A stretch of DNA of 64,000 bases from an uncultured Eubacteriales bacterium (lineage in GTDB: Bacteria > Bacillota > Clostridia > Oscillospirales > CAG-272). Positions 1-59,209 of the stretch are shown in pieces; the first letter of the stretch is position 1, and each line of letters begins with the position of its first letter. The notes beneath the pieces were generated by a model that was given only the letters and a program-made list of their open reading frames with translations, was not told the origin of the DNA and searched no databases. Position numbers and translations under genes: made by a program. The DNA lies in NCBI GenBank assembly GCA_934446365.1, contig CAKSDZ010000002.1, positions 37,751 through 101,750 on the forward strand, in the 5' to 3' direction.

Positions 1-333
1 TTTATCCTTGACAATCAGCGTCGTCTTGTCATAGCTCACGATGACGTTATAGGCTTTCGGCGAGTAATCCGTATCTTCATAAGGCACCGCGCCGACATTC
101 TCGCCCGAATGTTTCGAATATTCCTCAATAAAATCCGCATATTCCTTTCCGCCTTTCAGGAACTTATTTCCGATTTCATCTAAAATCAGCTTTTCGTCCA
201 GCTCGTCGGCAGAGGTTTGGTATGCCGTATTCCCATACAGCACAGCGGAAAGAAAAATGAAAGCGATGACACTGACCATCATGAGGCCGATGATGACAAT
301 CGGCATCACCGAGCCTTTTTTGCTGTTTTTCAT
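1..333 (-). CDS. hypothetical membrane-anchored protein, C-terminus outside window (last visible gene of pilus-like operon)
   Basis: Absent from the ORF track because it runs off the window edge. My translation from ATG 333 reads MKNSKKGSVMPIVIIGLMMVSVIAFIFLSAVLYGNTAYQ..., with one N-terminal hydrophobic helix. Its ATG overlaps the TGA of the upstream gene (ATGA at 330-333), which suggests translational coupling. Confidence 0.5.
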   Translation of the reverse strand, partial: MKNSKKGSVMPIVIIGLMMVSVIAFIFLSAVLYGNTAYQTSADELDEKLILDEIGNKFLKGGKEYADFIEEYSKHSGENVGAVPYEDTDYSPKAYNVIVSYDKTTLIVKDK

Positions 334-950
334 GAGCCGCTCGCCTCCGTTCCCGATTCGGCCGCCTGCGCAAGCGAGGCGTCAAGCGTCAGTCCGGACG
401 TCAGATAATAGGCACGGCGCAGAGCTGTCGAGCCGCCCTTTATATAGAGCGCCTCGGCAATCAAAGTGTCCACTCGGATGATGCCGCCGCGATTTTCAAT
501 ATAGACGACCACCTTCACGGAGCAATTCGATGCCGTATCATAGGATTCCGCATCCTTTTCGACGTTTTTCTCCGCAATCCGATCGAGGCGCGCCGTCACA
601 GCACCGGAACGCGGCGTCCCCTCTTCCTTCATGGTATAATAATCGGAAGGGATATAAACGGCGAGCCTCCATATTTCGCCGCTTGCAAATGAAGCCGGGA
701 AGCCGCCCTCAACCGACGATATACCGTATACAAACTTCAAAGCCTCCTCGGGATCATCGCTTTGCAGACAGGAGAGAACATTATCCGCTTCGTTCACCGC
801 ATATTGACGGTAAGCTACATTTTCAAAGGATTCCGCGGCAAAAAGTACGGTCGAAAGCGCCGCAAAGGAAACGATGATGACAACCGTCATGGCCACAACA
901 ACCTCGACAAGCGTCATACCGCGCCGGGATCTGGTATTTGCTTGGTTCAC
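330..950 (-). CDS. type IV pilin-like protein (minor pseudopilin) with prepilin-type N-terminal cleavage/methylation motif
   Basis: The N-terminus MNQANTRSRRG|MTLVEVVVAMTVVIIVSF has a basic leader, Gly, Glu at +5 and a hydrophobic helix. GTG start at 950 with AAAGGAGG 9 nt upstream. Confidence 0.7.
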   Translation of the reverse strand: MNQANTRSRRGMTLVEVVVAMTVVIIVSFAALSTVLFAAESFENVAYRQYAVNEADNVLSCLQSDDPEEALKFVYGISSVEGGFPASFASGEIWRLAVYIPSDYYTMKEEGTPRSGAVTARLDRIAEKNVEKDAESYDTASNCSVKVVVYIENRGGIIRVDTLIAEALYIKGGSTALRRAYYLTSGLTLDASLAQAAESGTEASGS

Positions 951-987: not shown

Positions 988-2313
988 TCACAAAATCTGC
1001 TGTCCCTTGAATGAGCCTGCAAAATAACCGCCGTAAGCGGAAAGATTTCCGGTCAGCTCGGGATTTTTCTCGACAGACGGATCAAAATACAGAAATTTCA
1101 TATGAGAATCCTCCTCCGCATTCAGCCTTTCAAGCAAAAACGCAAACTGCGCCGGCAGATTCAGCACCGTATAATCCGGCGTCGGCATGCCCTCCGTCAG
1201 CCTGCACTGCCTGATAAAAAGCAGGATTCGCTTCAAAATATACCGAAAGTTCTCATAAACGAAGCCGCGCTCATCCTCGGGAAACTCACGCTGCATGAAT
1301 TTCGGCAGCTTTCGGCCCTCTTTTTTGGTCAGCGTTTTTTCACTGCGGACGGGAGCCGTTCCTGCGGCATCCTCCGCCTGAAGCTCGCCGATAAGCTTCA
1401 ACATTTCCTCTTCCGAAAGATTTTCCATATTCATGGCAGGGATTTCCCCTGTCGCGGCGGGTATTTCCGCCGTTTCCTCGGCCGCAGGAGCGTCGGGAGC
1501 CGGACGGACGCCCGTTTCCTCGTCCTCTTCGTCCGAATATTCCTCATCGCTGATGGTAATGATCGATTTTGTCAGCTGCTTCGCCCTTGCAGCCTCCTTG
1601 GCATTCAGCACGGCCAGCTCCGCGACGTCGTCGCCGTAAATCGTGTTCTCTCCGACGACCTTATTCGGTTTTAAGATATCCTGTCCGAACGGCAGCTCGG
1701 AAAAGCCGAGGATTCGGTCTTTCTCGGTCAGAATGAGCAGTGTGCTGTTTTCCTTGATATCGACGAAAAGAAGATTGTCTTTTTTTACCTTGGGACGCAG
1801 CTCAAAAAGTGCACCTGCGGCTGCGGCCGGCGCAAACGTGAGCGTCGTGACCGGCATGGAATGCTTGGCGAAAGTCTCTCGGATTCCGTCGATCAGCGCT
1901 TTTCTCGTCACGGTCAGAAGATAGGCGGTGCTCTTTTTGTTGGTATAGAATATCTGCGGCGAAATTTTCAGCTCCTCCGCATTTTTATACTGATTTTTGA
2001 TTTCCGCCTTGAAAGCGGATTCCATTTGTGACTTCGACATCGTCGGAATCGTGATGATATCAAACGTCACAAGCGAAGCGGGCAGCACCACGGTCAGCGC
2101 GAACATGCGAAGCTGACGGAACAGCGGCGAAACGGCGGGGAGCGCCTCGTCAAGCGCCTCTGCATACTGGCCGCGCCGGAGCTTATCCCCCGGCAGAGGA
2201 AAATCCTTTGCTCTCGCTTTCTGCACGGAAGCGCCCGGTGCATTCATAATGGTTAGTTTTTCCGCCGCGGCGTTGATTTCCACCACGATCACAGGACTGT
2301 TGTTCGCTGCCAT
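988..2313 (-). CDS. PilM-like pilus assembly protein (tentative) with acidic low-complexity insert
   Basis: 441 aa, sitting between two pilin-like genes. The N-terminal half has a PilM-like layout (VVLPASLVTFDIITIPTMSKSQMESAFKAEI... LLTVTRKALIDGIRETFAKHSMPVTTLTFAPAAAAGAL). The assignment comes from pattern and context only. Confidence 0.45.
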   Translation of the reverse strand: MAANNSPVIVVEINAAAEKLTIMNAPGASVQKARAKDFPLPGDKLRRGQYAEALDEALPAVSPLFRQLRMFALTVVLPASLVTFDIITIPTMSKSQMESAFKAEIKNQYKNAEELKISPQIFYTNKKSTAYLLTVTRKALIDGIRETFAKHSMPVTTLTFAPAAAAGALFELRPKVKKDNLLFVDIKENSTLLILTEKDRILGFSELPFGQDILKPNKVVGENTIYGDDVAELAVLNAKEAARAKQLTKSIITISDEEYSDEEDEETGVRPAPDAPAAEETAEIPAATGEIPAMNMENLSEEEMLKLIGELQAEDAAGTAPVRSEKTLTKKEGRKLPKFMQREFPEDERGFVYENFRYILKRILLFIRQCRLTEGMPTPDYTVLNLPAQFAFLLERLNAEEDSHMKFLYFDPSVEKNPELTGNLSAYGGYFAGSFKGQQIL

Positions 2314-16385: not shown

Positions 16386-16625
16386 GAGACTGAATTTTGA
16401 CGATATCAAAATCACAGCACTTCATGTCAAAATCGAAAATTCCTGTCCATAAGACGAAAAAATGCAGTTTACAAAAGAATTTTATAAAGGCTTTGCGATT
16501 ACAGGAAGCGCACACAAGCATGGCATGCCGGCAATGCCGGCAGAAAATTTGATAAAGGGCGCGGTGGCGGAAGCCGGTCATGATATCTTTCGCTGAAACC
16601 GGAAAAAAATCTGAAATCATAAGAC

Positions 16626-16665
16626 AAATCCCCTCCGACGATTAAAAGGTCGTCGGAGGGGATTT
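16626..16665. terminator. bidirectional hairpin terminator between convergent units
   Basis: ATCCCCTCCGACG...CGTCGGAGGGGAT is a 13-bp stem, with TTTG following on the plus strand and TTTGTCTT on the minus strand. Confidence 0.6.
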
Positions 16666-16666
16666 G

Positions 16667-17191
16667 TCAGCTCGTATAATCGCTGTTATCGGAAAAAATG
16701 TTGTAATTGTTGGCAAGCGTGTTCCACGTCTGTTTATCGACGATTCCCGTCACCGGAAGCCGGTTGAGCTCCTGAAACCGGCGGATCGCATCCGACGTTT
16801 CCTGATCAAAGACTCCGCTCGGCACGATATTTTCAAAATCGTCGTAAACGACCGCCACCGCGGACAAAATAATCTGTATGATATAGACAATATCGCTTTT
16901 TTCTCCGAGATGCGTCTTATAATCCGGATTCGGAAACGGAATGATCGCAATTCCCGGCGTCGTCTTATAGACGGCGTTTCCATATTCCTCCTTGACCTTA
17001 TTCCAAGTCGCAAAATCGACGATTCCGTTGACCGGAAGTCCGTATAAAGCCTGAAATTCTTTTACGGCTGTCTCGGTTTCCGTACCGAAAATGCCATCCG
17101 GTGCGATCACCTTCATATTCTTATTGGTCTGAGCGATTTTTCGCAGCTTCGATTGAAGCTCATAGATTTCATCCTGGCGTGCTGTATTCAT
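16667..17191 (-). CDS. peptidoglycan-binding (PG_binding_1 repeat) protein
   Basis: Two repeats of the DGIFG..T..AV..FQ...GLP.(N/T)GIVD..TW type. Lies immediately downstream of the SleC catalytic gene. Confidence 0.7.
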   Translation of the reverse strand: MNTARQDEIYELQSKLRKIAQTNKNMKVIAPDGIFGTETETAVKEFQALYGLPVNGIVDFATWNKVKEEYGNAVYKTTPGIAIIPFPNPDYKTHLGEKSDIVYIIQIILSAVAVVYDDFENIVPSGVFDQETSDAIRRFQELNRLPVTGIVDKQTWNTLANNYNIFSDNSDYTS

Positions 17192-17192
17192 A

Positions 17193-18602
17193 TTATCCCT
17201 CCCCGTCGCCTATCGAAAGATCATTTCCGGAAAATTGTCCCTCCGCTCTGCCGGAACCCGTCTCCACATCGTTGTAAATATTCGCAAGCGTATCCCATGT
17301 AAGCGGACCGACGATTCCGTTGATCGGGTAGCCGAATACCGCCTGCACGGCATATATGGCATCCCTTGTATTCTCATCATAGATGCCGGTCAGCGGTATC
17401 TCCGGGATTTCTTCATATACGCCTGCCGCCGCATTGATGAAGCTTTGCAGCTGCTCCACCTCCGGACCGGTGGAGCCGAGCTTCAAAAAAGTTCCGGGAA
17501 ACGGCGGAACTTCGGCGCCGGACTGTTCGGGCGATAAGCTCTGTATGATTCCGTAATAAGCGTCGAAAAGCAAATTCCATGTCGCATCGTCGACAACCCC
17601 GGTAGCCGGCAGTCCCGCATAGGTTTGAAACGCGATAACCGAATTTTTCATCTGCTCGTCAAAAACGCCGTTCATGGATACGGATGGCACCTCCGCAATA
17701 AATTCCGCAACCGTATTCAGATAATATTGGACGACGCTGACCTCATATCCCGTATCGCCTTCCGACATCACTCCCTGAAACTGCTGCACGGCCTCGTCAA
17801 ATGTCAAGCCCTCGCTGAAAAGCTCATTGAGCTTCTTGACGGCATTATAGACAAATTGGATCTTATACCAAGTGGCCTTGCCCATGATTCCGTCTACATC
17901 GAGGTCGAATACCCGCTGAAATTCCCTGACGGCATTTTCCGTTTCTACGCCGAAAATGCCGTCCACAGGATCAATTTTCGGTATGGACGGATAGTTCGCG
18001 GAAATCCGATTCAGCCTTGTCTGCATAAAGGCTACGTCGTTGCCCACACTTCCGAGCCGAAGCAGGATTTCCGGCACGGACGGTTCGACCTCGCTCACCG
18101 GCGCATTGTAGACGATATTGATATCATCTCCATAATAGGTACGCAGAATATCATACGGCACATAGCCCAAATTGGCAAGCTCCACAGAGCCCCATTGGGA
18201 AAGCCCCTCGCAGGTCACGGTCGTACCGTTGCAGTACACCGCAAAAAGCGGCTCGATGTTATTTCCCCGCCGAATATAATTGTTAAAAATCTCATCGACA
18301 ATCCTGCTGATATTTTCAAAAATATCCCGACCGTATACAAAGGACTGATCCATCGCAGTCGAATTGGTGATATCGAAATCATACCCGCGGGATGGGTAAT
18401 ATTCGGTATAAATCCTGTTGAGCGCAAAGGAAATCTGTGCTAAAATATTGGCGCGCAGCGCGCTTTCCGGCCATGTCGGATAGATTTCGCTCGACGCCAC
18501 GTTTTTTATGTAATCCGTGAATGGCACCGTCACATTCTGGGCCGGAGCATCCGGCGCGCCGAGGTGAACGGTGATATATTCCGGAATAACCGGATATGGC
18601 AT
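17193..18602 (-). CDS. sleC: spore cortex-lytic enzyme SleC-like, catalytic domain plus about four PG-binding repeats
   Basis: IPEYITVHLGAPDAPAQNVTVPFTDYIKNVASSEIYPTWPESALRANILAQISFALNRIYTEYYPSRGYDFDITNSTAMDQ closely parallels the remembered mature region of clostridial SleC. Confidence 0.8.
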   Translation of the reverse strand: MPYPVIPEYITVHLGAPDAPAQNVTVPFTDYIKNVASSEIYPTWPESALRANILAQISFALNRIYTEYYPSRGYDFDITNSTAMDQSFVYGRDIFENISRIVDEIFNNYIRRGNNIEPLFAVYCNGTTVTCEGLSQWGSVELANLGYVPYDILRTYYGDDINIVYNAPVSEVEPSVPEILLRLGSVGNDVAFMQTRLNRISANYPSIPKIDPVDGIFGVETENAVREFQRVFDLDVDGIMGKATWYKIQFVYNAVKKLNELFSEGLTFDEAVQQFQGVMSEGDTGYEVSVVQYYLNTVAEFIAEVPSVSMNGVFDEQMKNSVIAFQTYAGLPATGVVDDATWNLLFDAYYGIIQSLSPEQSGAEVPPFPGTFLKLGSTGPEVEQLQSFINAAAGVYEEIPEIPLTGIYDENTRDAIYAVQAVFGYPINGIVGPLTWDTLANIYNDVETGSGRAEGQFSGNDLSIGDGEG

Positions 18603-18623
18603 AGTTTACACGCTCCTTTTCCT

Positions 18624-19043
18624 TTATAAATTCGGTTTTCTGATATTCTCATTGATAATGAGACTGCCCGACGGGTATCTTGAGGATTCCGAGCTGCTGA
18701 CCGGAATCATCCACGCAGGTTGAATAGAAGTGATTCCCGGATAGATGGGCACATGCGTGTTGACAATTCCATAATAGCCGTCGGCCGAAATCTCAATCGA
18801 AACGTCCGTATACGGCTTTGCGCCGCCGGGAGAGAGGGACTCCGACGGCGCCGGCGTCGGAATTTCAAGCGGCGGGGTTTTTCCGTCCGCGTCGGTATTC
18901 ATAACCGTGAGAAGGCGGCTGGTCCCGTCGTCCAAAACCTCTCGGACGACGACGGTAGCCCCGACGATCGGTATCGCGTTTCTCGCCGAGGTCGTCTGCA
19001 CGATCAGCTTTCCGTAATAATTCGCATTGACTGTGTTATCCAT
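18624..19043 (-). CDS. stand-alone homolog of the SleC N-terminal pre/pro region
   Basis: 139 aa (GKLIVQTTSARNAIPIVGATVVVREV...ISADGYYGIVNTHVPIYPG). It resembles the N-terminal carboxypeptidase-regulatory-like segment of prepro-SleC. It ends TAA and is separated from the sleC ATG by AGGAAAAGGAGCGTGTAAACT. Confidence 0.6.
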   Translation of the reverse strand: MDNTVNANYYGKLIVQTTSARNAIPIVGATVVVREVLDDGTSRLLTVMNTDADGKTPPLEIPTPAPSESLSPGGAKPYTDVSIEISADGYYGIVNTHVPIYPGITSIQPAWMIPVSSSESSRYPSGSLIINENIRKPNL

Positions 19044-19168
19044 AGTTTAAGCTCCATTCCGCCGCAAAGCGGCATCGTTACACAAGCGTGAGCCGCAAGG
19101 CTTCCCGCCGAAGATATCCAAACTAATACAGTATATGACAAAATTTTTTCGCCGTTACTTCATATCCC

Positions 19169-19197: not shown

Positions 19198-19267
19198 TTG
19201 CATGGTCGTTTTCCGTCCCGCGCTTCGGCGCGGAACCGGTCAAAACGGAGAAAGAGGTAAATTCTTC

Positions 19268-20623
19268 ATGAAAAGAGAGCTATTAAACTACGACATTTTT
19301 CCCAAGGTATTCCCCACCGACACCTGTGTCCGCTTCACGGTCAAGCCGCTCGGCGGCCATGCGGCGTTTGAAGCCGGTGCGGAGCATACCGTCTCCATTT
19401 ATGCGATGGACAAGGGCGATCCTGCAAGATATCCGGAACGGCACAATTTGACGGAATATAAAGTGACCCCGGACGGCGACGGCTGTATCCGCGTCACCCA
19501 CACCTTCCGCGGCGAGAGCGAATACTATGTCCGGATATTCAAAGAAGGCGCCCGCATCGTTCAGCTTTCCGTTTATGCGGTGCTGCCCGATCTCGTCGGA
19601 CGCTATCCGTACATGGGAGACATGCACATGCACTCCACGATGTCGGACGGCAAGGAGCATCCGTACATCGTCGCAGCAAACTACCGGAAATTCGGTTACG
19701 ACTTCATGGCAATCACGGATCACCGAAAATTCTATCCCTCTTTGGAGACCCGCAATTTTTACAGCGATCTGAACTTAGATATCCGGTTTTATACCGGTGA
19801 GGAAATCCATCTTCCCGGGAACGACATTCATATCGTCAATTTCGGCGGCGATTACAGCATCAACGGATTGCTGGAATCCTCACAGCAGTTTATCTGCCGC
19901 GGCGCCGACCCGAAATGGCGCTCCATTAACGGAAGCTGCCCCGACGTTCTCACCGTCCCCCAGTATGAAGAGGAGGTAAACGCGCTCATAGAGACGCTGA
20001 ACATTCCGGATGGAATTGAAAAATTCCAGTACGCCTCCTGCGTTTGGATCCTAAATCACATCAGAAAAGCGCACGGACTCGGAATTTTCGCCCATCCGTA
20101 CTGGATTTCCAACGTCTTTCAGGTGCCGGAGACATTCATCGACTATCTGTTTGAAACCCATCCGTTCGACGCCTTTGAAGTTTTCGGCGGAGAGCCGTAT
20201 TTTGAGCAAAACGGTTTTCAGGCCGCCAAATATTATGAATTCCGGGAAAAAGGCATCAAGGTCCCGATTGTGGGAAATACGGATTCTCACGGCTCGACGG
20301 AATACAATCCGATCATGAAAACCGCGCGCACAGTCGTATTCGCCAAGGAAAACACGAGAGATGAGATCGTATCCTCCGTCAAGAATTTTTATAATGCGGC
20401 GGTCCAGGACATCGGCGAACATCTCGAGGTGCTGGGCGATCTGCGCATGATGAAATATGCGTGGTTCCTTCTCACAAATTATTTTCCGCTCCACGACGAG
20501 CTTTGCTTCGAGGAGGGCCGTCTGATGAAGGAATTTGCCTGCGGCGACGCGGAAGCCGGAGACGAACTGCGCCGCATCTCGGGCAGAACACAAAAGCTGC
20601 GTGAAAAATATTTTATGTTCTGA
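19268..20623 (+). CDS. PHP-domain metal-dependent phosphoesterase family protein with N-terminal beta-rich domain
   Basis: The GDMHMHSTMSDGKEHP...AITDH motifs are typical of PHP. Start placed at MKRELLNY, with a purine-rich GAGAAAGAGG upstream. Confidence 0.7.
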   Translation: MKRELLNYDIFPKVFPTDTCVRFTVKPLGGHAAFEAGAEHTVSIYAMDKGDPARYPERHNLTEYKVTPDGDGCIRVTHTFRGESEYYVRIFKEGARIVQLSVYAVLPDLVGRYPYMGDMHMHSTMSDGKEHPYIVAANYRKFGYDFMAITDHRKFYPSLETRNFYSDLNLDIRFYTGEEIHLPGNDIHIVNFGGDYSINGLLESSQQFICRGADPKWRSINGSCPDVLTVPQYEEEVNALIETLNIPDGIEKFQYASCVWILNHIRKAHGLGIFAHPYWISNVFQVPETFIDYLFETHPFDAFEVFGGEPYFEQNGFQAAKYYEFREKGIKVPIVGNTDSHGSTEYNPIMKTARTVVFAKENTRDEIVSSVKNFYNAAVQDIGEHLEVLGDLRMMKYAWFLLTNYFPLHDELCFEEGRLMKEFACGDAEAGDELRRISGRTQKLREKYFMF

Positions 20624-23892: not shown

Positions 23893-24312
23893 TTGACCAT
23901 CAAACGCGGAGATATTTATTATGCGGATTTAAGTCCGGTCGTCGGAAGCGAACAGGGCGGTCTCAGACCCGTTCTGATTGTGCAAAATGACGTTGGAAAC
24001 CGATACAGTCCGACGGTCATTGCCGCTGCGATCACAAGTCAGCTCGGAAAGGCGAAGCTGCCGACGCATATCGACGTTTACGCCGAAAAGTACGGGCTTG
24101 TCAAGGATTCCGTGATTCTGCTCGAACAGATCCGAACCATTGACAAAACCAGACTGCGTGAAAAAATGGGACACCTTGACGACGTACTTATGCAAAGAGT
24201 CAACAATGCGATCACTGTCAGCTTCGGCCTTGACGAAGGATATGAATCCATGAAAGGACAGGCGGACATTCCCGCCGCGGCGGAAAAGGGAGCACCGGCC
24301 ATCACCGCATAA
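23893..24312 (+). CDS. mazF: MazF/EndoA (PemK family) type II toxin endoribonuclease
   Basis: (M)[59 protein letters not shown]... is nearly collinear with B. subtilis EndoA. TTG start, with an in-frame TGA 9 nt upstream. Confidence 0.85.
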
Positions 24313-24489: not shown

Positions 24490-24518
24490 TTGACTAATCC
24501 TTTTTATTATGATAGAAT
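24490..24518 (+). promoter_or_regulatory. sigma-A-type promoter
   Basis: TTGACT (24490-24495), 17-nt spacer, TAGAAT (24513-24518), in a very AT-rich intergenic region. Confidence 0.6.
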
Positions 24519-24556
24519 GTTCGCGAAAAATGAAAATCAGGAGTGTACATCACAAA

Positions 24557-26236
24557 ATGAAAAATCATTATCAACTTCTGAAAGAACATTTCTTTCAGAA
24601 CCTCGAATCCACCTTAAAAGCTTATGAAGCCCGCATGAATCCGGAGACCTCCGCCCTTGAAAAATCTGCACTTCTCGGGCTTGACGATCCCGGTTATTAC
24701 GGCTGCTTTTATCCATGGTTCGTTCTCGGCTATTATATGCCCGATTCTCCTCGCTATCATGACAAAAAGCTTCTTGAATATGCGCTCGCGGCACTTGAAA
24801 AATATGAAACCTATATTCATGAAGACGGCTCGGTCGACCTTATCGAGACAAACTTTCATGATCCGGCGCAAACCGGCTTTCACGTCAAAGCTTATTTCGG
24901 TGTGACGGAAATTCTTGTGAAGTTCTCAGAGCATACCGAGCTCGAAGAGAAGCTATTGGAAATCACCGTCAGAATCCTTTCCAAAATGGGCGAGGCGATG
25001 TCGACACTCGGCTTCCATACGCCGAATCATCGTTGGGTCATCAGCGCTTCCCTTTCGATTGCGTATAGATACACACATAATCCGAAATTTCTTGAAACGA
25101 TCAATCGTTTCCTGATGGAGGGCATCGACTGCGACGAGAACGGCGAATATACCGAACGCTCGACCGGCTCCTATAACAACATCTGCAACCATTCTTTCTT
25201 TCTTCTCGCATATTTTCTGAACGACCCATCCTTTTTGGAGTATCCGAGACGCAACCTGAACCTGATGTACAGCTTCACGGAGCCGGATTTGACCGTCAAT
25301 ACGCTGAATTCCACAAGATGGGATCAGGGCGGCCAGTACAGCATCGCTCCTTACTATACCTTTTATCTGATTCTCGCACTTTGGGATAAAAATCCCGAAT
25401 TTGCCTACATGGCGGACACCATTACCGAAAAATTAGATTTGCCGTCGGCACTCAGCATTTATCAATGCGATATTCTTTCATTTTTCATGCTTTTCCCCGA
25501 AATGAATGAAAGACAGAGCGCACTTGAACCCAAAGCTCCCGCGAAGGATCAAGCCAAATTCCTTCCTAACAGCAACATCGCCAGAATCTACAAGCCTGAA
25601 AATGATCTCGTCATCACGCTTCTCGGAACAAGACATCCCGTATTCATGCAGCTCAACTACGGTTCCAGCATTATTCAAGTCCGTTATGCGGGTTCTTTCT
25701 TCGGCGACCCACATTCCCAGTTCCGGGCAAGAGAAATCGAACCGACGGAAGACGGCTTCCGGCTCATCTGCGACGAATCTGCCGGCTACCGTTCTCAACT
25801 GGAAGAAAAACCGGAAACCTCGGAGTGGCGCCATATGGACCACTCCAAGCGCAAAATCATAAACATTCAGCATTTCCACACCGAAATCACCGTCCATATC
25901 AAAGATGACGGCGCCGTGCTCGATATCGAAACCTCCGGCTGTGAAAGAATCCCGACCAAGCTCGAATTTGTCATGATGCCCGGCGGTAAGCTCGATACGC
26001 CGACCTTTGCGACCTATCCCAAAGCGGGCGATTATCTTTTCATCAAAGAGGGCAGCGCGCGTTACTTCTTAGACGGCCGCCGGTATATTGAAATCGACGG
26101 AGGCTTTTTCGCGCACACCTATGCGGAACACATGCGCGGCGCATTCCCGGCCGATGAGAAGAAAGTCACGCTCGCCATGACGGCAACGACACCGCAGCGT
26201 TCCACCGTGGAAATCCATGCGAAAAAAATCTATTGA
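24557..26236 (+). CDS. hypothetical cytoplasmic protein; alpha-helical N-terminal half plus beta-rich C-terminal half (heparinase II/III-like architecture is only a guess)
   Basis: Long ORF with no signal peptide. The start is chosen downstream of the predicted promoter, with AGGAG at 24539-24543. Motifs such as GFHTPNHRW are seen. I recognise no confident family. Confidence 0.55.
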   Translation: MKNHYQLLKEHFFQNLESTLKAYEARMNPETSALEKSALLGLDDPGYYGCFYPWFVLGYYMPDSPRYHDKKLLEYALAALEKYETYIHEDGSVDLIETNFHDPAQTGFHVKAYFGVTEILVKFSEHTELEEKLLEITVRILSKMGEAMSTLGFHTPNHRWVISASLSIAYRYTHNPKFLETINRFLMEGIDCDENGEYTERSTGSYNNICNHSFFLLAYFLNDPSFLEYPRRNLNLMYSFTEPDLTVNTLNSTRWDQGGQYSIAPYYTFYLILALWDKNPEFAYMADTITEKLDLPSALSIYQCDILSFFMLFPEMNERQSALEPKAPAKDQAKFLPNSNIARIYKPENDLVITLLGTRHPVFMQLNYGSSIIQVRYAGSFFGDPHSQFRAREIEPTEDGFRLICDESAGYRSQLEEKPETSEWRHMDHSKRKIINIQHFHTEITVHIKDDGAVLDIETSGCERIPTKLEFVMMPGGKLDTPTFATYPKAGDYLFIKEGSARYFLDGRRYIEIDGGFFAHTYAEHMRGAFPADEKKVTLAMTATTPQRSTVEIHAKKIY

Positions 26237-27034: not shown

Positions 27035-27661
27035 TTAGTCTATCTGCTCTAAGTAGAAAGAACCGACATATTCATCGCCTATCTTCTGACCATCATCAAG
27101 CGTATTGTTGACATTTTGCAATATTGCCGAATTGGCAATCAATATCACCCGAAACTCTGTTCCGTTTTTACCCGTAATGGTAGCAACATAATCATAATAA
27201 GCAATGCTCTCAACAGCAGCTCCAAAATCTGTAGCATCTGCCGCTTTCTTTGATACTGCCGTTGTTTTTTTCAGAACAGCGCCAATATCGTAGAAAGAAT
27301 TTTTTTCTTCTTTTGCCGCTTTTGCAAATGTAATAACAGTTTTGGTTTTACTTCCATCCTCGTTTGTAACAGTACTTGTGCTGGAAGCCTCCTGCGGAAC
27401 GACACCGAAAGTCAAGGTTGAAAATGCAATAAATTCGCCATTCCCATTGAGTTCAAGAGTGGCCGGTGTGCCGTTTTCCGCTATGAAATCATAATACTGC
27501 GCATTAAGCATTGATTTGATTTCCTGCAAATCCGCCGAAGCATTGGCCTTGGCTACCACATTCGAGAAAGTGGCGATCATAACACCGGCCAAAATGGCAA
27601 TGACGGCAATGACAATAACAAGCTCAACAAGTGTAAAGCCCTTTTTATTTGTTTTTTTCAT
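27035..27661 (-). CDS. type IV pilin (PilA-like, probable major subunit)
   Basis: MKKTNKKG|FTLVELVIVIAVIAILAGVMIATFSNVV is a canonical class III signal with Glu5. 208 aa. Confidence 0.8.
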   Translation of the reverse strand: MKKTNKKGFTLVELVIVIAVIAILAGVMIATFSNVVAKANASADLQEIKSMLNAQYYDFIAENGTPATLELNGNGEFIAFSTLTFGVVPQEASSTSTVTNEDGSKTKTVITFAKAAKEEKNSFYDIGAVLKKTTAVSKKAADATDFGAAVESIAYYDYVATITGKNGTEFRVILIANSAILQNVNNTLDDGQKIGDEYVGSFYLEQID

Positions 27662-27682: not shown

Positions 27683-29317
27683 TCAATCTCCAACGACAAC
27701 GCTACTATTACCATTCTTATCATTTTGTTTCCAATAATTAGTGGTAGCATTTGTGTTATTCGTTGTATCGCTGTGGAGGAACACCTTAATATTGGCGCTC
27801 GTCTGACCGACAATGCCGTAATTCCATGTTGACGTCGAATTTGTTGTATCGTTCGATGTCACAGAGCCGTTGCTGGTGCAATTCTTAATAATGACGCTGT
27901 TTGCATCTCCTTCTGTTTCAGGTGCAAATTCAGAGTTCTGTGCAACCGAGAAATTACGTGCATATCCGATAATACCGGCAGCAAAGTGATAACCGGTTTT
28001 CAGCTCTTTTGCGGTGGAAACGACTGTCGCATTGTTGATACAATTTTCAATCGTGCCGAAACCGCCGCCGACAATACCGCCGACACGGTAATTGTTTTTC
28101 ACAGAACCGTTAACCGTTACATTCTTGACTGTACCACCATACAGATATCCGACCGCACCGCCGACGAGAACGCCGTCCGCACCGGTATCGGAAATATCAT
28201 AGTTCACTTCAAGAACGAGATTTTCGAGAACTGCGCCCTCTCCAAGAGAAGCAACAAAGCCAACGCCATATTTATCCGCGTTACCGGTTACCTTATCAAC
28301 AGAAATCGCAAAACCGTTCTTCGCGGCATTGAAAGAAGTATCGATCTTGATACCGGAAATGGTGACAGGGTTTGCGGCATCCGTACCCTTGATGGTGCCC
28401 TCAAATGTCGCGCCTGTTCCAATCGGTGTCCATGTGGAACCGGAAAGAGGGATATCTTCCGTAAGTTCAATCGTCACACCCTTAAAGGTCACGCCTTCCG
28501 CAGAAAGTCCTGCAATGGATTTGAACTCGGAAATCGAAAGTCCGTCTTTTCCTCCGACCTTCAACGTCAAGGGAGTACCGGAAGCGGCTGCTTCAATGGC
28601 AGCTTGCTTTTCTGCATACCAACCATAATCGCCGGCAACGCCGTTGCGAATGTAAAGAGCAAGCGTTTCAGTAACGATTCGATTTGCTTCCTCTGCCGTC
28701 AGTGCGGAACTGCTCGAATCGGAAATTGCCTGTTTTACAGCTTCCGTTACCGAGGTTACGGCACCATCGGAAATCGCCTTTACAATCGATTGAACCTGAG
28801 TAGCCGTCAGAGAATTGGCACTTGCCGCTTCCTTGATCTGGTTGATTTGGCTTGCACTGAGGGTGACGGTGGAGCTTGCCTGATATTTCTTTACAATGGC
28901 TTCCACCTGTGTCGCTGTCAACTGACCTTGGAGAGAATTTTCAATGATATACTTGATCTGCTCCTCGGTAACACCCGTATTGCCGGAACCGAGACTGTCG
29001 GCATACTTTTTGATTGCAGCATCAACAGCTTTAGAAACGTCTTCAGATGAAGCGCCTGCATCAATGCCTTTCAGACCTTCCGCAATGGCAACCTCGATAT
29101 CCTCCCAGCTGAGCCAGTCGGCATTTTCGAGCTTTTTGATGATATCATCCGATTTTTGCTCAAGCTCCGCCTGCTTCATCTCCTGTTCTTGGCGGCTCTT
29201 TTCCGCTTTGTTTACAACATTCGCAAACACGGCGATCATCACACCCGCGAGAATCGCGATGACGGCGATGACGATGACGAGCTCTACCAGCGTAAAGCCC
29301 CTCTTCTTTTGTTTCAT
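27683..29317 (-). CDS. modular type IV pilin: pilin N-terminus, helical repeat linker, and GLUG-motif/beta-helix-like C-terminal module
   Basis: MKQKKRG|FTLVELVIVIAVIAILAGVMIAVFANVV. Next come LTATQV..IVK-type repeats. The C-terminus has VGGAVGYLYGGTVKNVTVNGSV..VGGIVGGGFGTIENCINNATV..AAGIIGYA..IIKNCTSNGSV. Confidence 0.75.
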   Translation of the reverse strand: MKQKKRGFTLVELVIVIAVIAILAGVMIAVFANVVNKAEKSRQEQEMKQAELEQKSDDIIKKLENADWLSWEDIEVAIAEGLKGIDAGASSEDVSKAVDAAIKKYADSLGSGNTGVTEEQIKYIIENSLQGQLTATQVEAIVKKYQASSTVTLSASQINQIKEAASANSLTATQVQSIVKAISDGAVTSVTEAVKQAISDSSSSALTAEEANRIVTETLALYIRNGVAGDYGWYAEKQAAIEAAASGTPLTLKVGGKDGLSISEFKSIAGLSAEGVTFKGVTIELTEDIPLSGSTWTPIGTGATFEGTIKGTDAANPVTISGIKIDTSFNAAKNGFAISVDKVTGNADKYGVGFVASLGEGAVLENLVLEVNYDISDTGADGVLVGGAVGYLYGGTVKNVTVNGSVKNNYRVGGIVGGGFGTIENCINNATVVSTAKELKTGYHFAAGIIGYARNFSVAQNSEFAPETEGDANSVIIKNCTSNGSVTSNDTTNSTSTWNYGIVGQTSANIKVFLHSDTTNNTNATTNYWKQNDKNGNSSVVVGD

Positions 29318-56806: not shown

Positions 56807-59044
56807 TTAAAAGGTTTTTCCTTTGTTTTTATTCTTCGACATAATGAGATAGACAGCAGCGCCCGCGATGGCAAGCGTGACGACTACAATGATGATCGGC
56901 ACCACGATATTCGGACTGTTCTCCTCGCCCTTTGTGACGAAAATCGCATCCACGCCGTTAAGCTCCGAGCCGTCGATGGCGATATCCAGTCCCTTTCTGC
57001 TGTAATTTTCCAGCGTATAGAATGCGTTTCCGCGAAGAACGACAAGAGACACGTCGTAATCCTTGAAAGCAGCATCAATCGAAAGCGTCATTTTCATATC
57101 CGACGCAATGGGAGTTTCTACGCCGTCCACAAGAAGCCTATAAACATAACCTTCATCGAACTCCCGATACTTCTTATACTCCACCGCCACATCGATCGGC
57201 ATCGCTCCGATTTCAAACAGCACATTCTTGGAAGCCGTGGCACCGGTAACATAGAGAGAACCGCTGATGCTTGTGAGCGTCTTCTCGACACCGCTCTTCA
57301 CGGTTTTCGTCACCTCGGAATACCCGCAGATGCTGCAAGTCTTTGTCGTAGTCTTTCCTTTTACCACGGGTTCTCCGAATACATGTCCCGTGCTCGGGTC
57401 AACAGCGCTGTCCACATAACCGCAAAGCTCGCAGACACGTTCCTTCAAGCCGTCCGTAATACAGGTCTTTGCACTGACCACCTTCCATTCGCCATAGGAA
57501 TGTGCGTTCGGATCCACAGCGACCGTTCTCGTCTCACGTTTCCCGCAGACCGAGCAGACACGCTCCTCCGTGCCCGCCGCCTTACAGGTCGGAGCCGCCG
57601 TTACCGTCCATGCCCCCCAGGTGTGAGAAGTAAGCGGGATCGTCTGCGTGTCCTCCTCTGCGCAAAGAGAGCATGTCCGCCTCTCCGTTCCGGTTGAAAC
57701 GCAGGTCGCCTCCTTGGTTGTCACCCAAGAACTCCAGCTATGGCCGGATTTTGCAATTGTTTCCGTATCAACTTCACCACAGATAATACAAATACGCGAT
57801 CTGGTTCCGGTCGATACACACGTAGCTTCTTTTGTGATTGTCCAAGCACCCCAGCTGTGGCCAAGCGGTGCGATAATCTCCGTTTCGATGTCATCACAGA
57901 CCGAGCATCTATGATACCGGCTTCCGGAGGTCGTGCAGCCCGCCTGCACCGTCACCGTCCATTCGCCGAAAGCGTGATCCGCCAGCGGAAGCTCTCGTGT
58001 TTCCGTCGCGCCGCAGGTCGGGCACTCATAAACGGCAGAGCCCTTTGTCGTACAGGTAGAAGCCGTTACGACCCTTTTCAGGGTATAGAGCGCCGAATCG
58101 TGCGCACACTGATTGTCCGCCTCCGAGACCTGTCCGCAAACCGTGCATTTCTGCTTATAAACGCCGTTCTCCAAATAACGTGCGCCCCATGTATGTCCCG
58201 TAGCCGGGGCCAGCGTCCACGAAATCGTCCCGCAAAGCTTGCATTTGTAATAGCCGTAGCCGGCCGTAGTACAAGTCGCGTCCTGTCCTTGGGACGGCGT
58301 ATAGCGCTTGGAATAATCAAAATCATGATCCGTCAGAAGCAAGGTTTCCGTCTTGACAACATAGCCGCAGGTCGTGCAGTACTGCTCGCGCGTGCCGGTG
58401 GTTGTGCAGGTCGCTTCTTTTGTAACTCTCGAATTCGTATTGCTGTGGTTGCAGATATACACGTTGTGCGTCGTCGTCTGCGAGTCAAAGCCGAAAGAAG
58501 TTCCGTCCGCTTTCTTCGCAGCACCGGAGACTGTAATCTCTCTGATGCGCATAAACGAGAGATCAAGCCACTTCGTATCGACCGGATAGGTGATGGTAAA
58601 AGAACCCGTAGGCGACCGGGAATCCTCTCCTGCGTCCGGAATCGTAATCGTAACCGTCGATACGGAGGCAGTGCCGGCTACCGAAACAAAAGATGATTGT
58701 GAAAGAAACTCTCCGAATAAATAGCCGCTTACGGACGTAGGCCTTTCGAGCGTACTGACCGGTGCCGTCACAACAACGGTTCCGCCGCTGATTTTATTTC
58801 CCGTTTTGGAGCCGACCGAAAATGTCACAGTGAGGGTTTGCAGGGTTTCATTATAGGCACTGCCCGTCACCTCCGCATACAACTGCTCCGTATCGTCATC
58901 CGCGGCGAGAACAGCATGTCCGGAACGACTGTGATCATGGTCACACGCGTCATGCGTGTCGACCGCGGCATTTTCAAATCCGTATGTACCGAAGCAAACC
59001 AAGCACACGGAAAACGCCAGCAGAAACGCTAAAAATTTTTTCAT
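56807..59044 (-). CDS. surface protein with signal peptide, Ig-like N-terminal region, about 10 tandem Cys3-His repeats, beta-rich domain and C-terminal TM anchor
   Basis: Start at MKKFLAFLLAFSVCLVCFG with GGAGGAG upstream. C-terminus is IVVPIIIVVVTLAIAGAAVYLIMSKNKNKGKTF. The repeat array is described under findings. Confidence 0.7.
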   Translation of the reverse strand: MKKFLAFLLAFSVCLVCFGTYGFENAAVDTHDACDHDHSRSGHAVLAADDDTEQLYAEVTGSAYNETLQTLTVTFSVGSKTGNKISGGTVVVTAPVSTLERPTSVSGYLFGEFLSQSSFVSVAGTASVSTVTITIPDAGEDSRSPTGSFTITYPVDTKWLDLSFMRIREITVSGAAKKADGTSFGFDSQTTTHNVYICNHSNTNSRVTKEATCTTTGTREQYCTTCGYVVKTETLLLTDHDFDYSKRYTPSQGQDATCTTAGYGYYKCKLCGTISWTLAPATGHTWGARYLENGVYKQKCTVCGQVSEADNQCAHDSALYTLKRVVTASTCTTKGSAVYECPTCGATETRELPLADHAFGEWTVTVQAGCTTSGSRYHRCSVCDDIETEIIAPLGHSWGAWTITKEATCVSTGTRSRICIICGEVDTETIAKSGHSWSSWVTTKEATCVSTGTERRTCSLCAEEDTQTIPLTSHTWGAWTVTAAPTCKAAGTEERVCSVCGKRETRTVAVDPNAHSYGEWKVVSAKTCITDGLKERVCELCGYVDSAVDPSTGHVFGEPVVKGKTTTKTCSICGYSEVTKTVKSGVEKTLTSISGSLYVTGATASKNVLFEIGAMPIDVAVEYKKYREFDEGYVYRLLVDGVETPIASDMKMTLSIDAAFKDYDVSLVVLRGNAFYTLENYSRKGLDIAIDGSELNGVDAIFVTKGEENSPNIVVPIIIVVVTLAIAGAAVYLIMSKNKNKGKTF
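57299..58468 (-). repeat. coding tandem repeat array (~39-aa unit, 8 full and 2 partial copies)
   Basis: Residues ~193-582 of the ORF. Each unit follows the pattern H-x-[WFY]-[GS]-x-W...T-C-x3-G-x5-C-x2-C-x10-14. Confidence 0.8.
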
Positions 59045-59209
59045 AGTTTCTCCTCCGAATTTTGACATTGCGACCGTCGCCCAAAAACGGCGATACAACG
59101 ATGAAATCATGTCCGCCAAATATGCGCTTATCGTGTTCTTCTTCAAGCTGCCGTCCTGAAAAAAACGATAAAATCCGCACTTTTCCGCGGCGGAGCGGCT
59201 ACAAGGGCG

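What the first reader, a model, noticed from the sequence alone, without database searches (positions are those of the whole stretch)
16667..19043. SleC cortex-lytic enzyme locus with the pro-domain encoded as a separate cistron, plus an extra PG-binding protein
In Clostridium perfringens and C. difficile, SleC is made as a single prepro-zymogen. Csp subtilisin-like proteases remove its N-terminal region during germination. Here the N-terminal-region homolog is its own 139-aa ORF (18624-19043). The catalytic and PG-binding part starts at its own ATG (18602), roughly where I recall mature SleC beginning (MPYPVIPEYITVHLGAPDAP...). The 21-nt gap reads TAA-AGGAAAAGGAGCGTG-TAA-ACT-ATG. It has two in-frame stops and a canonical Shine-Dalgarno sequence, so this is not a single nonsense mutation or a frameshift. 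The catalytic protein carries about four PG_binding_1 repeats. A further 174-aa protein with two such repeats follows at 16667-17191. No csp gene lies in the window. A trans-encoded pro-domain would imply a different activation logic (non-covalent inhibitor or chaperone) for germination.
Basis: partly seen in the sequence, partly recalled or inferred. Interest (0 to 1): 0.6.

Follow-up and report, generated by a model that had tools for sequence, protein, structure and literature searches.

The report
Split two-gene SleC spore cortex enzyme
In this gut Clostridia genome, and in every close relative examined, the spore-germination enzyme SleC is encoded as two adjacent genes (a small N-terminal-domain protein and a ready-trimmed catalytic protein) rather than one self-inhibited precursor, so its on-switch probably differs from the one studied in C. 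difficile and C. perfringens.

Summary
Three co-oriented minus-strand ORFs (139, 469 and 174 aa) form one operon, from a sigmaK-like promoter motif to a strong terminator. The 469-aa protein is a SleC orthologue (E 5e-70 to C. difficile SleC, PDB 9h68). It begins 3 residues before the conserved PVIPE motif and has three PG_binding_1 repeats, not four. The 139-aa protein is homologous in sequence (hhalign 97.9%, E 3e-13) and in predicted fold (TM 0.71 to 9h68) to the SleC N-terminal domain.

The split is not decay. About 75 related loci, plus three distant ones (37-56% GC, catalytic identity down to 51%), have the same separate upstream ORF with short or overlapping junctions in all three frame offsets. 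None is fused.

The small ORF matches the "pre" domain (native residues 4-117). In C. difficile, YabG cuts this domain off during sporulation; it is not the short Csp-removed pro-peptide. A two-chain state is therefore normal in spores. What is unusual is that the catalytic chain has no covalent pro-peptide, the YabG-site loop is absent, the small protein has a conserved free C-terminus (often ending in Leu), and no csp gene is nearby.

Verdict: a widespread, unannotated new variant of a known system. The mechanism is inferred, not shown.

The parts
19130..19155 (-). SigmaK-like mother-cell promoter motif, AC-N16-CATATACT (-10 element at 19137-19130), 86-112 nt upstream of the small ORF's ATG
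   Evidence: Read from the sequence. The same AC-N15-17-CATAnnnT motif lies within 200 nt upstream of the small ORF in 30 of 71 related loci, against 3.9% of random windows; CATATACT is the commonest -10 element. This is a motif match only; expression was not tested.
18624..19043 (-). 139-aa small subunit, homologue of the SleC N-terminal 'pre' domain. Beta-sandwich at aa 9-112 (nt 18708-19019); flexible tail at aa 113-139 ending ...INENIRKPNL
   Evidence: M1 and D2 are invariant in the family, so the start codon is right. No Pfam or NCBIfam hit.
18603..18623 (-). 21-nt intercistronic spacer with AAGGAG Shine-Dalgarno (18618-18613) and a second in-frame TAA (18608-18606)
   Evidence: In relatives this junction runs from -11 to +23 nt in most loci, with many 4-nt overlaps.
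18093..18602 (-). Catalytic ORF aa 1-170: SleC-type SpoIID/LytB-like lytic transglycosylase domain. It starts MPYPVIPEY with no pro-peptide and has the invariant ASSE motif (E39)
   Evidence: It is 50% identical to the C. difficile SleC catalytic domain.
17844..18065 (-). PG_binding_1 repeat 1 (aa ~180-253), equivalent to the single C-terminal PG-binding domain of C. difficile SleC
17562..17774 (-). PG_binding_1 repeat 2 (aa ~277-347), absent from C. difficile SleC
17280..17492 (-). PG_binding_1 repeat 3 (aa ~371-441), absent from C. difficile SleC. The whole ORF is 17193-18602
   Evidence: (5nm7 match at 373-440)
16667..17191 (-). 174-aa accessory protein with two PG_binding_1 repeats and no catalytic domain. 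Its start lies 1 nt after the catalytic ORF's stop
   Evidence: A ~175-aa homologue lies directly downstream in 38 of 66 related loci, and a downstream PG_binding_1 ORF (110-188 aa) follows in three distant loci.
16623..16668 (-). Intrinsic terminator: 19-bp stem (11 G-C pairs), 8-nt loop, T-rich tail. It starts at the stop codon of the third gene

Best explanation
This is a three-gene sporulation operon that encodes a two-chain version of the clostridial cortex-lytic enzyme SleC, plus a peptidoglycan-binding accessory protein.

Shown: gene 1 is the homologue of the SleC N-terminal beta-sandwich 'pre' domain. Gene 2 is the SleC catalytic lytic-transglycosylase domain followed by three PG_binding_1 repeats, and it starts at about the mature N-terminus. 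Gene 3 has two more PG_binding_1 repeats. This split architecture is the conserved, normal state in a large group of Oscillospiraceae, Acutalibacteraceae and Ruminococcaceae-type Clostridia. It is not decay.

Inferred: the operon is transcribed in the mother cell late in sporulation from a sigmaK-type promoter, as sleC is in C. difficile. The small protein binds the catalytic chain non-covalently, reproducing without proteolysis the two-piece state that YabG cleavage creates in C. difficile spores. It acts as a folding, stabilising or inhibitory partner. The catalytic chain has no covalent pro-peptide and the YabG-site loop is missing, so activation at germination cannot be a Csp-type cut of the catalytic chain. 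Activation must instead act on the small subunit (release or degradation, possibly through its conserved tail and free C-terminal Leu) or on access to substrate.
For: Homology of both chains to a single SleC polypeptide: hhalign 97.9%, E 3e-13; AF2 pLDDT 79; best PDB match 9h68, TM 0.71, rmsd 1.7-2.8 A; the next hits are generic transthyretin-like folds.

The small ORF maps to native residues 4-117, ending 2 residues before the YabG site R119: together with PMC6464247 and bioRxiv 10.1101/2024.06.10.598338.

Conservation of the split: L001-L003 at 57-65% identity. Of the 80 best genome loci, about 75 have a separate pre-like ORF directly upstream and none is fused; the frame offset takes all three values, and 73 pairs were extracted. 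Junctions are mostly -11 to +23 nt with many 4-nt overlaps. Three distant loci with 37-56% GC, 51-58% catalytic identity and 38-41% small-ORF identity have the same trio.

Profile search of 1.84 billion representatives: 2230 hits, of which 948 have E below 1e-10. In the top 150 the domain is standalone or at the C-terminal end of the protein, never followed by a catalytic domain.

The top 120 catalytic homologues are roughly 440-480 aa apart from one 313-aa fragment. Nearly all catalytic ORFs start 2-11 residues before P-x-I-P-E-x-I-T-V-H-L-G.

The sigmaK-like motif is enriched about 10-fold upstream, and sleC is sigmaK-dependent in C. difficile (PMC3738446). A terminator follows gene 3.

A C-terminal Leu ends 36 of 72 locus ORFs and 86 of 149 representatives.

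Contrast case: the frameshifted sleC genes in L084 and L085 are a continuous fused gene with a single frame break.
Against: No direct evidence shows that the two proteins bind each other. The tail is predicted disordered when modelled alone (pLDDT below 50).

Tail-to-pro-peptide homology rests on one MAFFT alignment and was not recovered by hhalign.

The exact CspB cleavage site in SleC could not be retrieved. 'Starts at the mature N-terminus' is therefore only bounded: the YabG site is at 119 and the first aligned residue is native 159.

The C-terminal motif is present in only about 50-58% of family members.

The sigmaK motif is found in only 42% of loci and is a loose consensus.

One locus (L071) has an Amidase_3 gene instead of the small ORF upstream.
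Confidence: 0.6

Rival explanations
1. Strain-specific decay or assembly error. On this view a fused sleC was broken by nonsense or frameshift mutations, and the two ORFs are pseudogene fragments.
For: Frameshifted sleC genes do occur in public assemblies: Paraclostridium bifermentans CP124685.1 (L084) and P. sordellii ATCC 9714 (L085).
Against: The split is present in every informative related locus but one, across 37-56% GC, with its own SD and ATG. All three frame offsets occur, there are many ATGA-type overlaps, and none is fused. The small protein has 35 invariant columns over 58-94% identity. The exact protein has been seen on 375 contigs. The frameshifted cases look different: one frame break, with homologous residues continuing directly in another frame and no SD or ATG.
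Confidence: 0.01
2. The small protein is only a trans-acting folding or stability chaperone (or spore-targeting factor), not an inhibitor. On this view the catalytic chain is intrinsically competent and is held in check by substrate accessibility, by its three PG-binding repeats or the gene-3 protein, or by the dehydrated and ionic state of the dormant cortex. No proteolytic switch is involved.
For: The title of Okamura et al. 2000 (listed in PMC3567191) says the C. perfringens prepeptide is required for producing active enzyme from the precursor, which is a positive role. The catalytic ORF begins at the mature-like N-terminus. No csp gene lies in the window or in 656 kb of flanks. Two extra PG-binding repeats and an accessory PG-binding protein distinguish this type.
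Against: A cortex lytic enzyme stored next to its substrate for years normally needs a positive lock. The conserved tail and C-terminal Leu suggest an interaction or recognition element beyond folding. Nothing tested here discriminates inhibitor from chaperone.
Confidence: 0.25
3. Csp-dependent activation is retained. On this view the small subunit (pre plus a short pro-like tail) stays bound, and a Csp-type subtilase encoded elsewhere in the genome cleaves or strips it at germination. The logic is then the same as in C. perfringens except that the scissile protein is a separate chain.
For: The tail 'PSGSLIINEN' aligns with the fused 'PPTGFVVLDN' strand just before the mature core. Galperin et al. 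note that subtilase-family proteins are present in most spore-forming Firmicutes (bioRxiv 10.1101/2022.02.25.481979).
Against: Csp proteases are described for Clostridiaceae, Lachnospiraceae and Peptostreptococcaceae (PMC12880746), not for Oscillospiraceae. No subtilase is linked to the operon in 87 loci, nor present in the 64-kb window. The tail alignment has low confidence.
Confidence: 0.12
4. This is not a germination enzyme. On this view the pair is a SpoIID-like peptidoglycan remodelling enzyme used for engulfment, mother-cell lysis or vegetative wall turnover, and the small beta-sandwich protein is an unrelated neighbour.
For: Pfam sees only a weak SpoIID match (26 bits). No experiment exists for any member, and all are annotated as 'hypothetical' or 'peptidoglycan-binding protein'.
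Against: The catalytic region is far closer to SleC (E 5e-70, 50% identity over 257 aa) than to SpoIID structures (E above 0.3). The neighbour is specifically homologous to the SleC N-domain. The two are strictly adjacent across deep divergence.
Confidence: 0.02

Closest known systems
SleC prepro-zymogen of Clostridioides difficile (CD630_05510; PDB 9h68) and Clostridium perfringens
   Same: The catalytic domain is the same (50% identity, invariant ASSE, QWG and other motifs) and is followed by PG_binding_1. The N-terminal beta-sandwich domain is the same (28% identity, TM 0.71). The order of parts is the same. A likely sigmaK-type late mother-cell promoter matches C. difficile sleC. In mature C. 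difficile spores the pre domain is likewise no longer covalently attached, because YabG cuts after R119.
   Different: Here the N-domain is a separate gene product with its own SD and ATG. The Arg-rich loop of about 23-30 residues that carries the YabG site is absent. The catalytic chain has no covalent pro-peptide for CspB to remove. There are three PG-binding repeats rather than one, plus an extra gene with two more. The small protein has a conserved free C-terminus (often E-x-x-x-P-x-L). No csp gene is linked.
SleB-YpeB of Bacillus (bicistronic cortex-lytic enzyme plus partner)
   Same: In concept it is the same arrangement: a cortex lytic transglycosylase co-transcribed with a separate partner protein that is needed for its stability or localisation and is thought to hold it inactive (cites this role for YpeB). 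The partner rather than the enzyme is the plausible target at germination.
   Different: There is no homology. The SleB equivalog model TIGR02869 scores 86.9 bits against a cutoff of 236.5, and only through the PG-binding region. YpeB is a membrane-anchored PepSY protein encoded downstream, whereas here the partner is a soluble beta-sandwich encoded upstream.
Non-covalently retained pro-domains of subtilases (for example the CspB prodomain)
   Same: A pro-region that stays bound after separation from the enzyme and acts as chaperone and inhibitor; its release is the unexplained activating step (PMC3567191, PMC13434707).
   Different: In those cases the pro-domain is made in cis and autocleaved. 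Here it is genetically separate, the enzyme is a glycan-strand-cleaving lytic transglycosylase rather than a protease, and the fold is different.
SpoIID/LytB lytic transglycosylases
   Same: The catalytic domain belongs to the same superfamily (Pfam PF08486 at 26 bits; TIGR02669 at 36 bits).
   Different: Scores are far below the family cut-offs for SpoIID (TIGR02870: 25.6 against 234.75). The architecture and the partner protein differ.

Membership tests
SleC-type spore cortex-lytic enzyme | Catalytic domain homologous to the SleC SpoIID/LytB-like lytic transglycosylase domain | tested here: met
   phmmer against PDB 9h68: E 5e-70, query 3-259 against chain 216-474. 50% identity over the catalytic domain, with 65 invariant columns including E39 of the ASSE motif. 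That E39 is the catalytic Glu is inferred by analogy with SpoIID, not tested.
SleC-type spore cortex-lytic enzyme | C-terminal PG_binding_1 domain | tested here: met
   PF01471, E 1e-43, three stretches. The first repeat aligns with the single C. difficile repeat.
SleC-type spore cortex-lytic enzyme | N-terminal beta-sandwich 'pre' domain present | tested here: met
   Present, but on a separate polypeptide: hhalign 97.9%, E 3e-13; Foldseek best hit 9h68, TM 0.71.
SleC-type spore cortex-lytic enzyme | Synthesised as one prepro polypeptide (pre, pro, mature) | tested here: not met
   Two cistrons separated by two stops, an SD and an ATG. Conserved in all informative related loci but one; none is fused.
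SleC-type spore cortex-lytic enzyme | YabG processing loop (Arg cluster R112/R115/R119 in C. difficile) between the pre domain and the pro-peptide | tested here: not met
   The junction alignment shows that the split proteins lack about 23-30 residues of the fused linker, including the RxRSxRSxSR|Q segment. The site definition comes from PMC6464247 and bioRxiv 10.1101/2024.06.10.598338.
SleC-type spore cortex-lytic enzyme | Covalent N-terminal pro-peptide on the enzyme chain, removed by a Csp protease at germination | tested here: not met
   The catalytic ORF starts MPY-PVIPEY, 3 residues before the first conserved core motif. Nearly all of the 73 related catalytic ORFs start 2-11 residues before it. 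Whether any proteolysis occurs cannot be tested in silico.
SleC-type spore cortex-lytic enzyme | Late mother-cell (sigmaK) expression and deposition in the spore cortex region | tested here: inconclusive
   The AC-N16-CATATACT motif is at 19155-19130. The motif occurs upstream in 30 of 71 loci against 3.9% background. No expression data.
SleC-type spore cortex-lytic enzyme | Cortex (muramic-delta-lactam) peptidoglycan cleavage required for germination | not testable with these tools
   Needs biochemistry or genetics.
Csp-SleC germination pathway | Csp subtilase(s) (Peptidase_S8 with jellyroll insert) encoded in the genome, often next to sleC | tested here: inconclusive
   None found in the 64-kb window (Pfam on 20 large ORFs; motif screen) or in 656 kb flanking 87 related operons (crude motif screen). 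The rest of the genome could not be searched.
SleB/YpeB system | SleB hydrolase domain (Hydrolase_2) and a PepSY-domain partner YpeB | tested here: not met
   TIGR02869 scores 86.9 bits against a cutoff of 236.5, covering only the PG-binding part. The small ORF has no Pfam or NCBIfam hit.
Pfam DUF3869 (PF12985), the label given to the SleC N-domain by Galperin et al. | Significant match to PF12985 | tested here: not met
   No PF12985 hit at E up to 1 for the window ORF, for a fused-type P. sordellii N-region, or for four family members. Only sub-threshold CarboxypepD_reg, Big_1 and SpaA hits appeared.

The most novel reading that the evidence does not exclude
In Oscillospirales-type spore formers, which include many abundant gut commensals, cortex lysis is controlled by a Csp- and YabG-independent switch. 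A separately encoded SleC N-domain protein holds a pro-peptide-less SleC in check non-covalently. Its conserved tail with the free C-terminal Leu is the degron or docking element recognised at germination, for example by a PDZ-type protease, by analogy with HtrC acting on YpeB in Bacillus. The fused, twice-cleaved SleC of C. difficile and C. perfringens would then be one derived solution among two ancient architectures.
Probability: 0.2. Interest if true: 0.75.

Novelty: new variant of a known kind. Interest (0 to 1): 0.52.

Why it matters
SleC activation is the committed step of germination in clostridia that lack the Bacillus CwlJ/SleB route. All mechanistic knowledge of it comes from the fused zymogens of two pathogens.

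This work shows that a very large, uncharacterised group of Clostridia encodes the same enzyme in two pieces, without the YabG loop and without a covalent pro-peptide. The small-protein family has 2230 clusters at 50% identity, and every member with a source name in the clusters checked is annotated 'hypothetical protein'.

This gives a natural experiment on what the pre domain does. In the fused enzyme its role is hard to separate from processing.

It also identifies cultured organisms in which a Csp-independent activation route could be tested directly: Zongyangia hominis NSJ-54 and Clostridium methylpentosum DSM 5476.

Finally, it is relevant to how commensal spore formers germinate in the gut, and to annotation, since the small ORF could be named as a SleC N-terminal-domain protein.

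Tried and rejected
1. A joint structure prediction of small plus catalytic chains was attempted. The contiguous window translation was rejected because of its two stop codons. No interface model was obtained.

2. The apparent 'standalone' N-domain proteins in C. difficile's own family (P0284 from P. sordellii, P0290 from P. bifermentans) initially looked like further splits. Six-frame translation shows they are single frameshifts in a fused gene, in assemblies where other genes are also fragmented. They were rejected as splits and kept as a contrast case.

3. The exact CspB cleavage site and the 9h68 structure description were sought. The JACS 2025 paper (PMC12498524), Shimamoto 2001 and Paredes-Sabja 2009 are not held. 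Other papers gave only the YabG site.

4. The DUF3869 assignment from the literature was not reproduced by Pfam.

5. The third homology search, using the C. difficile N-domain fragment, returned only 12 hits, all short fragments or frameshifted calls and no full-length fused SleC. A census of fused forms was therefore not obtained.

7. A sigma-70 promoter scan of the region gave nothing convincing upstream of the small ORF.
Full report
OBSERVATION

The spacer between the first two reads TAA-AGGAAAAGGAGCGTG-TAA-ACT-ATG. It contains two in-frame stops and an AAGGAG ribosome-binding site 10 nt before the ATG (one search also reports two stops). The third ORF starts 1 nt after the second one's stop. 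A 19-bp-stem hairpin with a T-rich tail at 16668-16623 follows the third gene immediately. The three genes therefore form one transcription unit.

WHAT THE PROTEINS ARE

The 469-aa protein matches the solved C. difficile SleC zymogen (PDB 9h68) with E 5e-70, query residues 3-259 against chain residues 216-474. Pfam finds a weak SpoIID match at residues 25-87 and three PG_binding_1 repeats (repeats at aa 214, 311 and 405). The 174-aa protein has two such repeats and nothing else.

The 139-aa protein has no Pfam or NCBIfam hit, but it matches the same PDB chain at residues 61-174 (E 4.7e-5). I strengthened this in two ways:
- A profile of the small-protein family against a profile of fused-type SleC N-domains gives 97.9% probability, E 3e-13, over 110 columns.
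- An AlphaFold2 model (mean pLDDT 79; eight-stranded beta-sandwich over residues 9-112; tail 120-139 below pLDDT 50) has the N-terminal domain of 9h68 as its best PDB match (TM 0.71, rmsd 1.7-2.8 A, 27-28% identity, E 8e-8). It is well separated from the next hits, which are generic transthyretin-like sandwiches.

THE SPLIT IS CONSERVED

- Fourteen close homologues of the small protein are all about 132-149 aa, apart from one with an over-extended start.
- The loci of the most divergent ones (57% and 65% identity) carry the same 139 + 468 + 175 trio, in the same neighbourhood of uvrC, rsmD, coaD, a divergent PHP-like gene and a C15 peptidase.
- The 120 best homologues of the catalytic protein are roughly 440-480 aa apart from one 313-aa fragment.
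The 80 best come from Oscillospiraceae, Acutalibacteraceae and Ruminococcaceae-type genomes. They include the cultured Zongyangia hominis NSJ-54 and Clostridium methylpentosum DSM 5476.
- In these loci a pre-like ORF lies directly upstream of the catalytic ORF in every case with enough upstream sequence, except L071. There an Amidase_3 gene sits in its place.
- None is fused. The frame offset between the two ORFs takes all three values. The junctions are mostly -11 to +23 nt, with many 4-nt overlaps.
- Three much more distant members, reached through the profile search (GC 37-56%, catalytic identity 51-58%, small-protein identity 38-41%), have the same trio.
- A profile search of 1.84 billion cluster representatives found 2230 relatives of the small protein, 948 of them below E 1e-10. 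In the best 150 the domain is either a standalone protein of about 135-150 aa or sits at the C-terminal end of a longer protein with a disordered, proline-rich N-terminal extension. It is never followed by a catalytic region.

By contrast, the apparent standalone hits in C. difficile's own family (P. sordellii, P. bifermentans) are single frameshifts in a continuous fused gene. That is what real decay or sequencing error looks like, and it differs from the organised boundary seen here.

WHICH PART OF SleC IS THE SMALL ORF?

9h68 is the His/Twin-Strep-tagged C. difficile preproSleC. A 480-residue chain against a native protein I recall as 423 aa implies an offset of 57, which the residue matches below confirm independently; one search shows 100% identity to a C. 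difficile fragment. The chain string PRTRSKRSF at 166-174 then equals native P109, R110, R112, R115 up to F117. This matches the residues named in the YabG papers, including the SFSAQ Edman read.

YabG cuts preproSleC after R119 during sporulation, with fallback sites at R115 and R112 (PMC6464247; bioRxiv 10.1101/2024.06.10.598338). The resulting pro-SleC is later cut by CspB at germination (PMC3567191; PMC13434707).

The small ORF (residues 11-122) aligns to native residues 4-117. That is the pre domain, and the alignment ends two residues before the YabG site. Residue 3 of the catalytic ORF aligns to native N159, at the start of the conserved NPVVPEF core.

A junction alignment of fused and split forms places the small ORF's tail PSGSLIINEN against the fused PPTGFVVLDN strand that immediately precedes the core. 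It also shows that the fused proteins carry an extra Arg-rich loop (RQRSRRSYSR|QNEIIIDIGAHTLWGNYPPK) that the split proteins lack. This tail alignment is tentative, because hhalign did not extend into it.

I could not retrieve the exact CspB site. From memory of Urakami et al. 1999, C. perfringens SleC has a 113-residue pre-sequence and a 35-residue pro-sequence. That would place the mature N-terminus a few residues before the core motif, within about 10 residues of the gene boundary here.

CONSEQUENCE

A detached N-domain is already the normal state in mature C. difficile spores, so the split by itself reproduces genetically what YabG does proteolytically. What is unusual is the following:
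- The catalytic chain carries no covalent pro-peptide. Nearly all of the 73 related catalytic ORFs start 2-11 residues before the core motif.
- The YabG loop is missing.
- The enzyme has two extra PG-binding repeats, and in 38 of 66 loci there is also an accessory protein with two more.
- The small protein has a conserved free C-terminus. 36 of 72 locus ORFs and 86 of 149 representatives end exactly in Leu, usually preceded by an acidic residue and often by Pro at position -3.

EXPRESSION AND ACTIVATORS

An AC-N16-CATATACT motif, fitting the sigmaK consensus as I recall it, lies at 19155-19130. The same pattern occurs within 200 nt upstream of the small ORF in 30 of 71 loci, against 3.9% of random windows. 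C. difficile sleC is sigmaK-dependent (PMC3738446).

No subtilase gene is present in the window (Pfam on 20 large ORFs; motif screen). None was found in 656 kb flanking 87 related operons, though that was a crude motif screen. The literature places Csp proteases in Clostridiaceae, Lachnospiraceae and Peptostreptococcaceae (PMC12880746). Whether these genomes encode Csp elsewhere could not be tested.

MECHANISM

Shown: this is a conserved operon that encodes the SleC pre-domain homologue, a pro-peptide-less SleC catalytic chain and a PG-binding accessory protein.

Inferred: the operon is expressed in the mother cell. The small and catalytic chains associate non-covalently, as in the fused zymogen. 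The small chain acts as chaperone and/or lock. Activation works through release or degradation of the small chain, or through substrate access, rather than through a cut in the catalytic chain.

The title of Okamura et al. 2000 (reference list of PMC3567191) says that the C. perfringens prepeptide is needed to obtain active enzyme from the precursor. That supports a functional role for the detached domain. Any details beyond the title come from my memory only.

The nearest functional analogy is SleB-YpeB in Bacillus. There is no homology to it.

NOVELTY

I found no paper describing a split SleC. Galperin et al. describe SleC only as a multidomain protein. Public sources name the small protein 'hypothetical protein' (MBS6446803.1, seen on 375 contigs) and the enzyme 'peptidoglycan-binding protein'.

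I rate this a new variant of a known kind. It is widespread and clearly real. It is moderately surprising to germination specialists, and cultured organisms are available for testing it.

Noticed in passing
window 19202-20623 (+); L001 4495-5850 (-); L003 4469-5824 (-): A gene of 451-473 aa is transcribed divergently from the SleC operon and keeps this position in relatives at 57-65% identity. It has only a sub-threshold PHP-domain match (E about 2e-4, 22 bits against a cutoff of 26.4). Function unknown; it may share the intergenic regulatory region.
   Followed up: partly
P0153, P0158, P0165, P0177, P0180, P0194, P0235, P0275; loci L086 804-2150, L087 4001-5284, L089 3158-4075: Many family members carry an N-terminal extension of 100-300 residues before the pre-like domain. 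It is disordered and rich in Pro, Glu and Gln, and it begins with a short conserved helix (for example ...YxEELMxxYR..., DLEQLIRQYTQELLRFQKQY). These forms are still followed by the catalytic and PG-binding genes. The purpose of the extension is unknown.
   Followed up: partly
L071 2914-4023 (+): This is the one exception to the pattern. An Amidase_3 (N-acetylmuramoyl-L-alanine amidase, E 1e-43) gene lies directly upstream of the SleC catalytic gene, overlapping its start, and no pre-like ORF was found within 4 kb upstream.
   Followed up: partly
L084 5001-6270 (Paraclostridium bifermentans CP124685.1); L085 5001-6271 (P. sordellii ATCC 9714 APWR01000089.1): The fused-type sleC is interrupted by single frameshifts in these public assemblies. 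Neighbouring genes in L085 are fragmented too, which suggests sequencing errors rather than biology. The N-terminal fragments are deposited as 'hypothetical protein'.
   Followed up: yes
window 330-950, 2384-2977, 27035-27661, 27683-29317 (all -): Several proteins have type IV pilin-like N-terminal methylation motifs (PF07963 confirmed for three; the fourth, at 27035-27661, judged from its N-terminal sequence only), including a 544-aa one. They suggest pilus or pseudopilus gene clusters at both ends of this stretch.
   Followed up: no
window 23893-24312 (+): A PemK/MazF-type toxin gene (named from the Pfam PF02452 annotation of the syntenic 136-139-aa gene in L001 and L003) sits a few kb from the operon, conserved in position. 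No antitoxin was looked for.
   Followed up: no
window 24509-26236 (+), 56807-59146 (-), 988-2313 (-): Three large ORFs (575, 779 and 441 aa) have no Pfam match at E up to 0.001.
   Followed up: no
literature: The SleC N-terminal domain is called DUF3869 (PF12985) in bioRxiv 10.1101/2022.02.25.481979. The current Pfam scan gives no PF12985 hit, either for a fused-type N-region or for the split proteins. Only sub-threshold CarboxypepD_reg, Big_1 and SpaA hits appear.
   Followed up: partly
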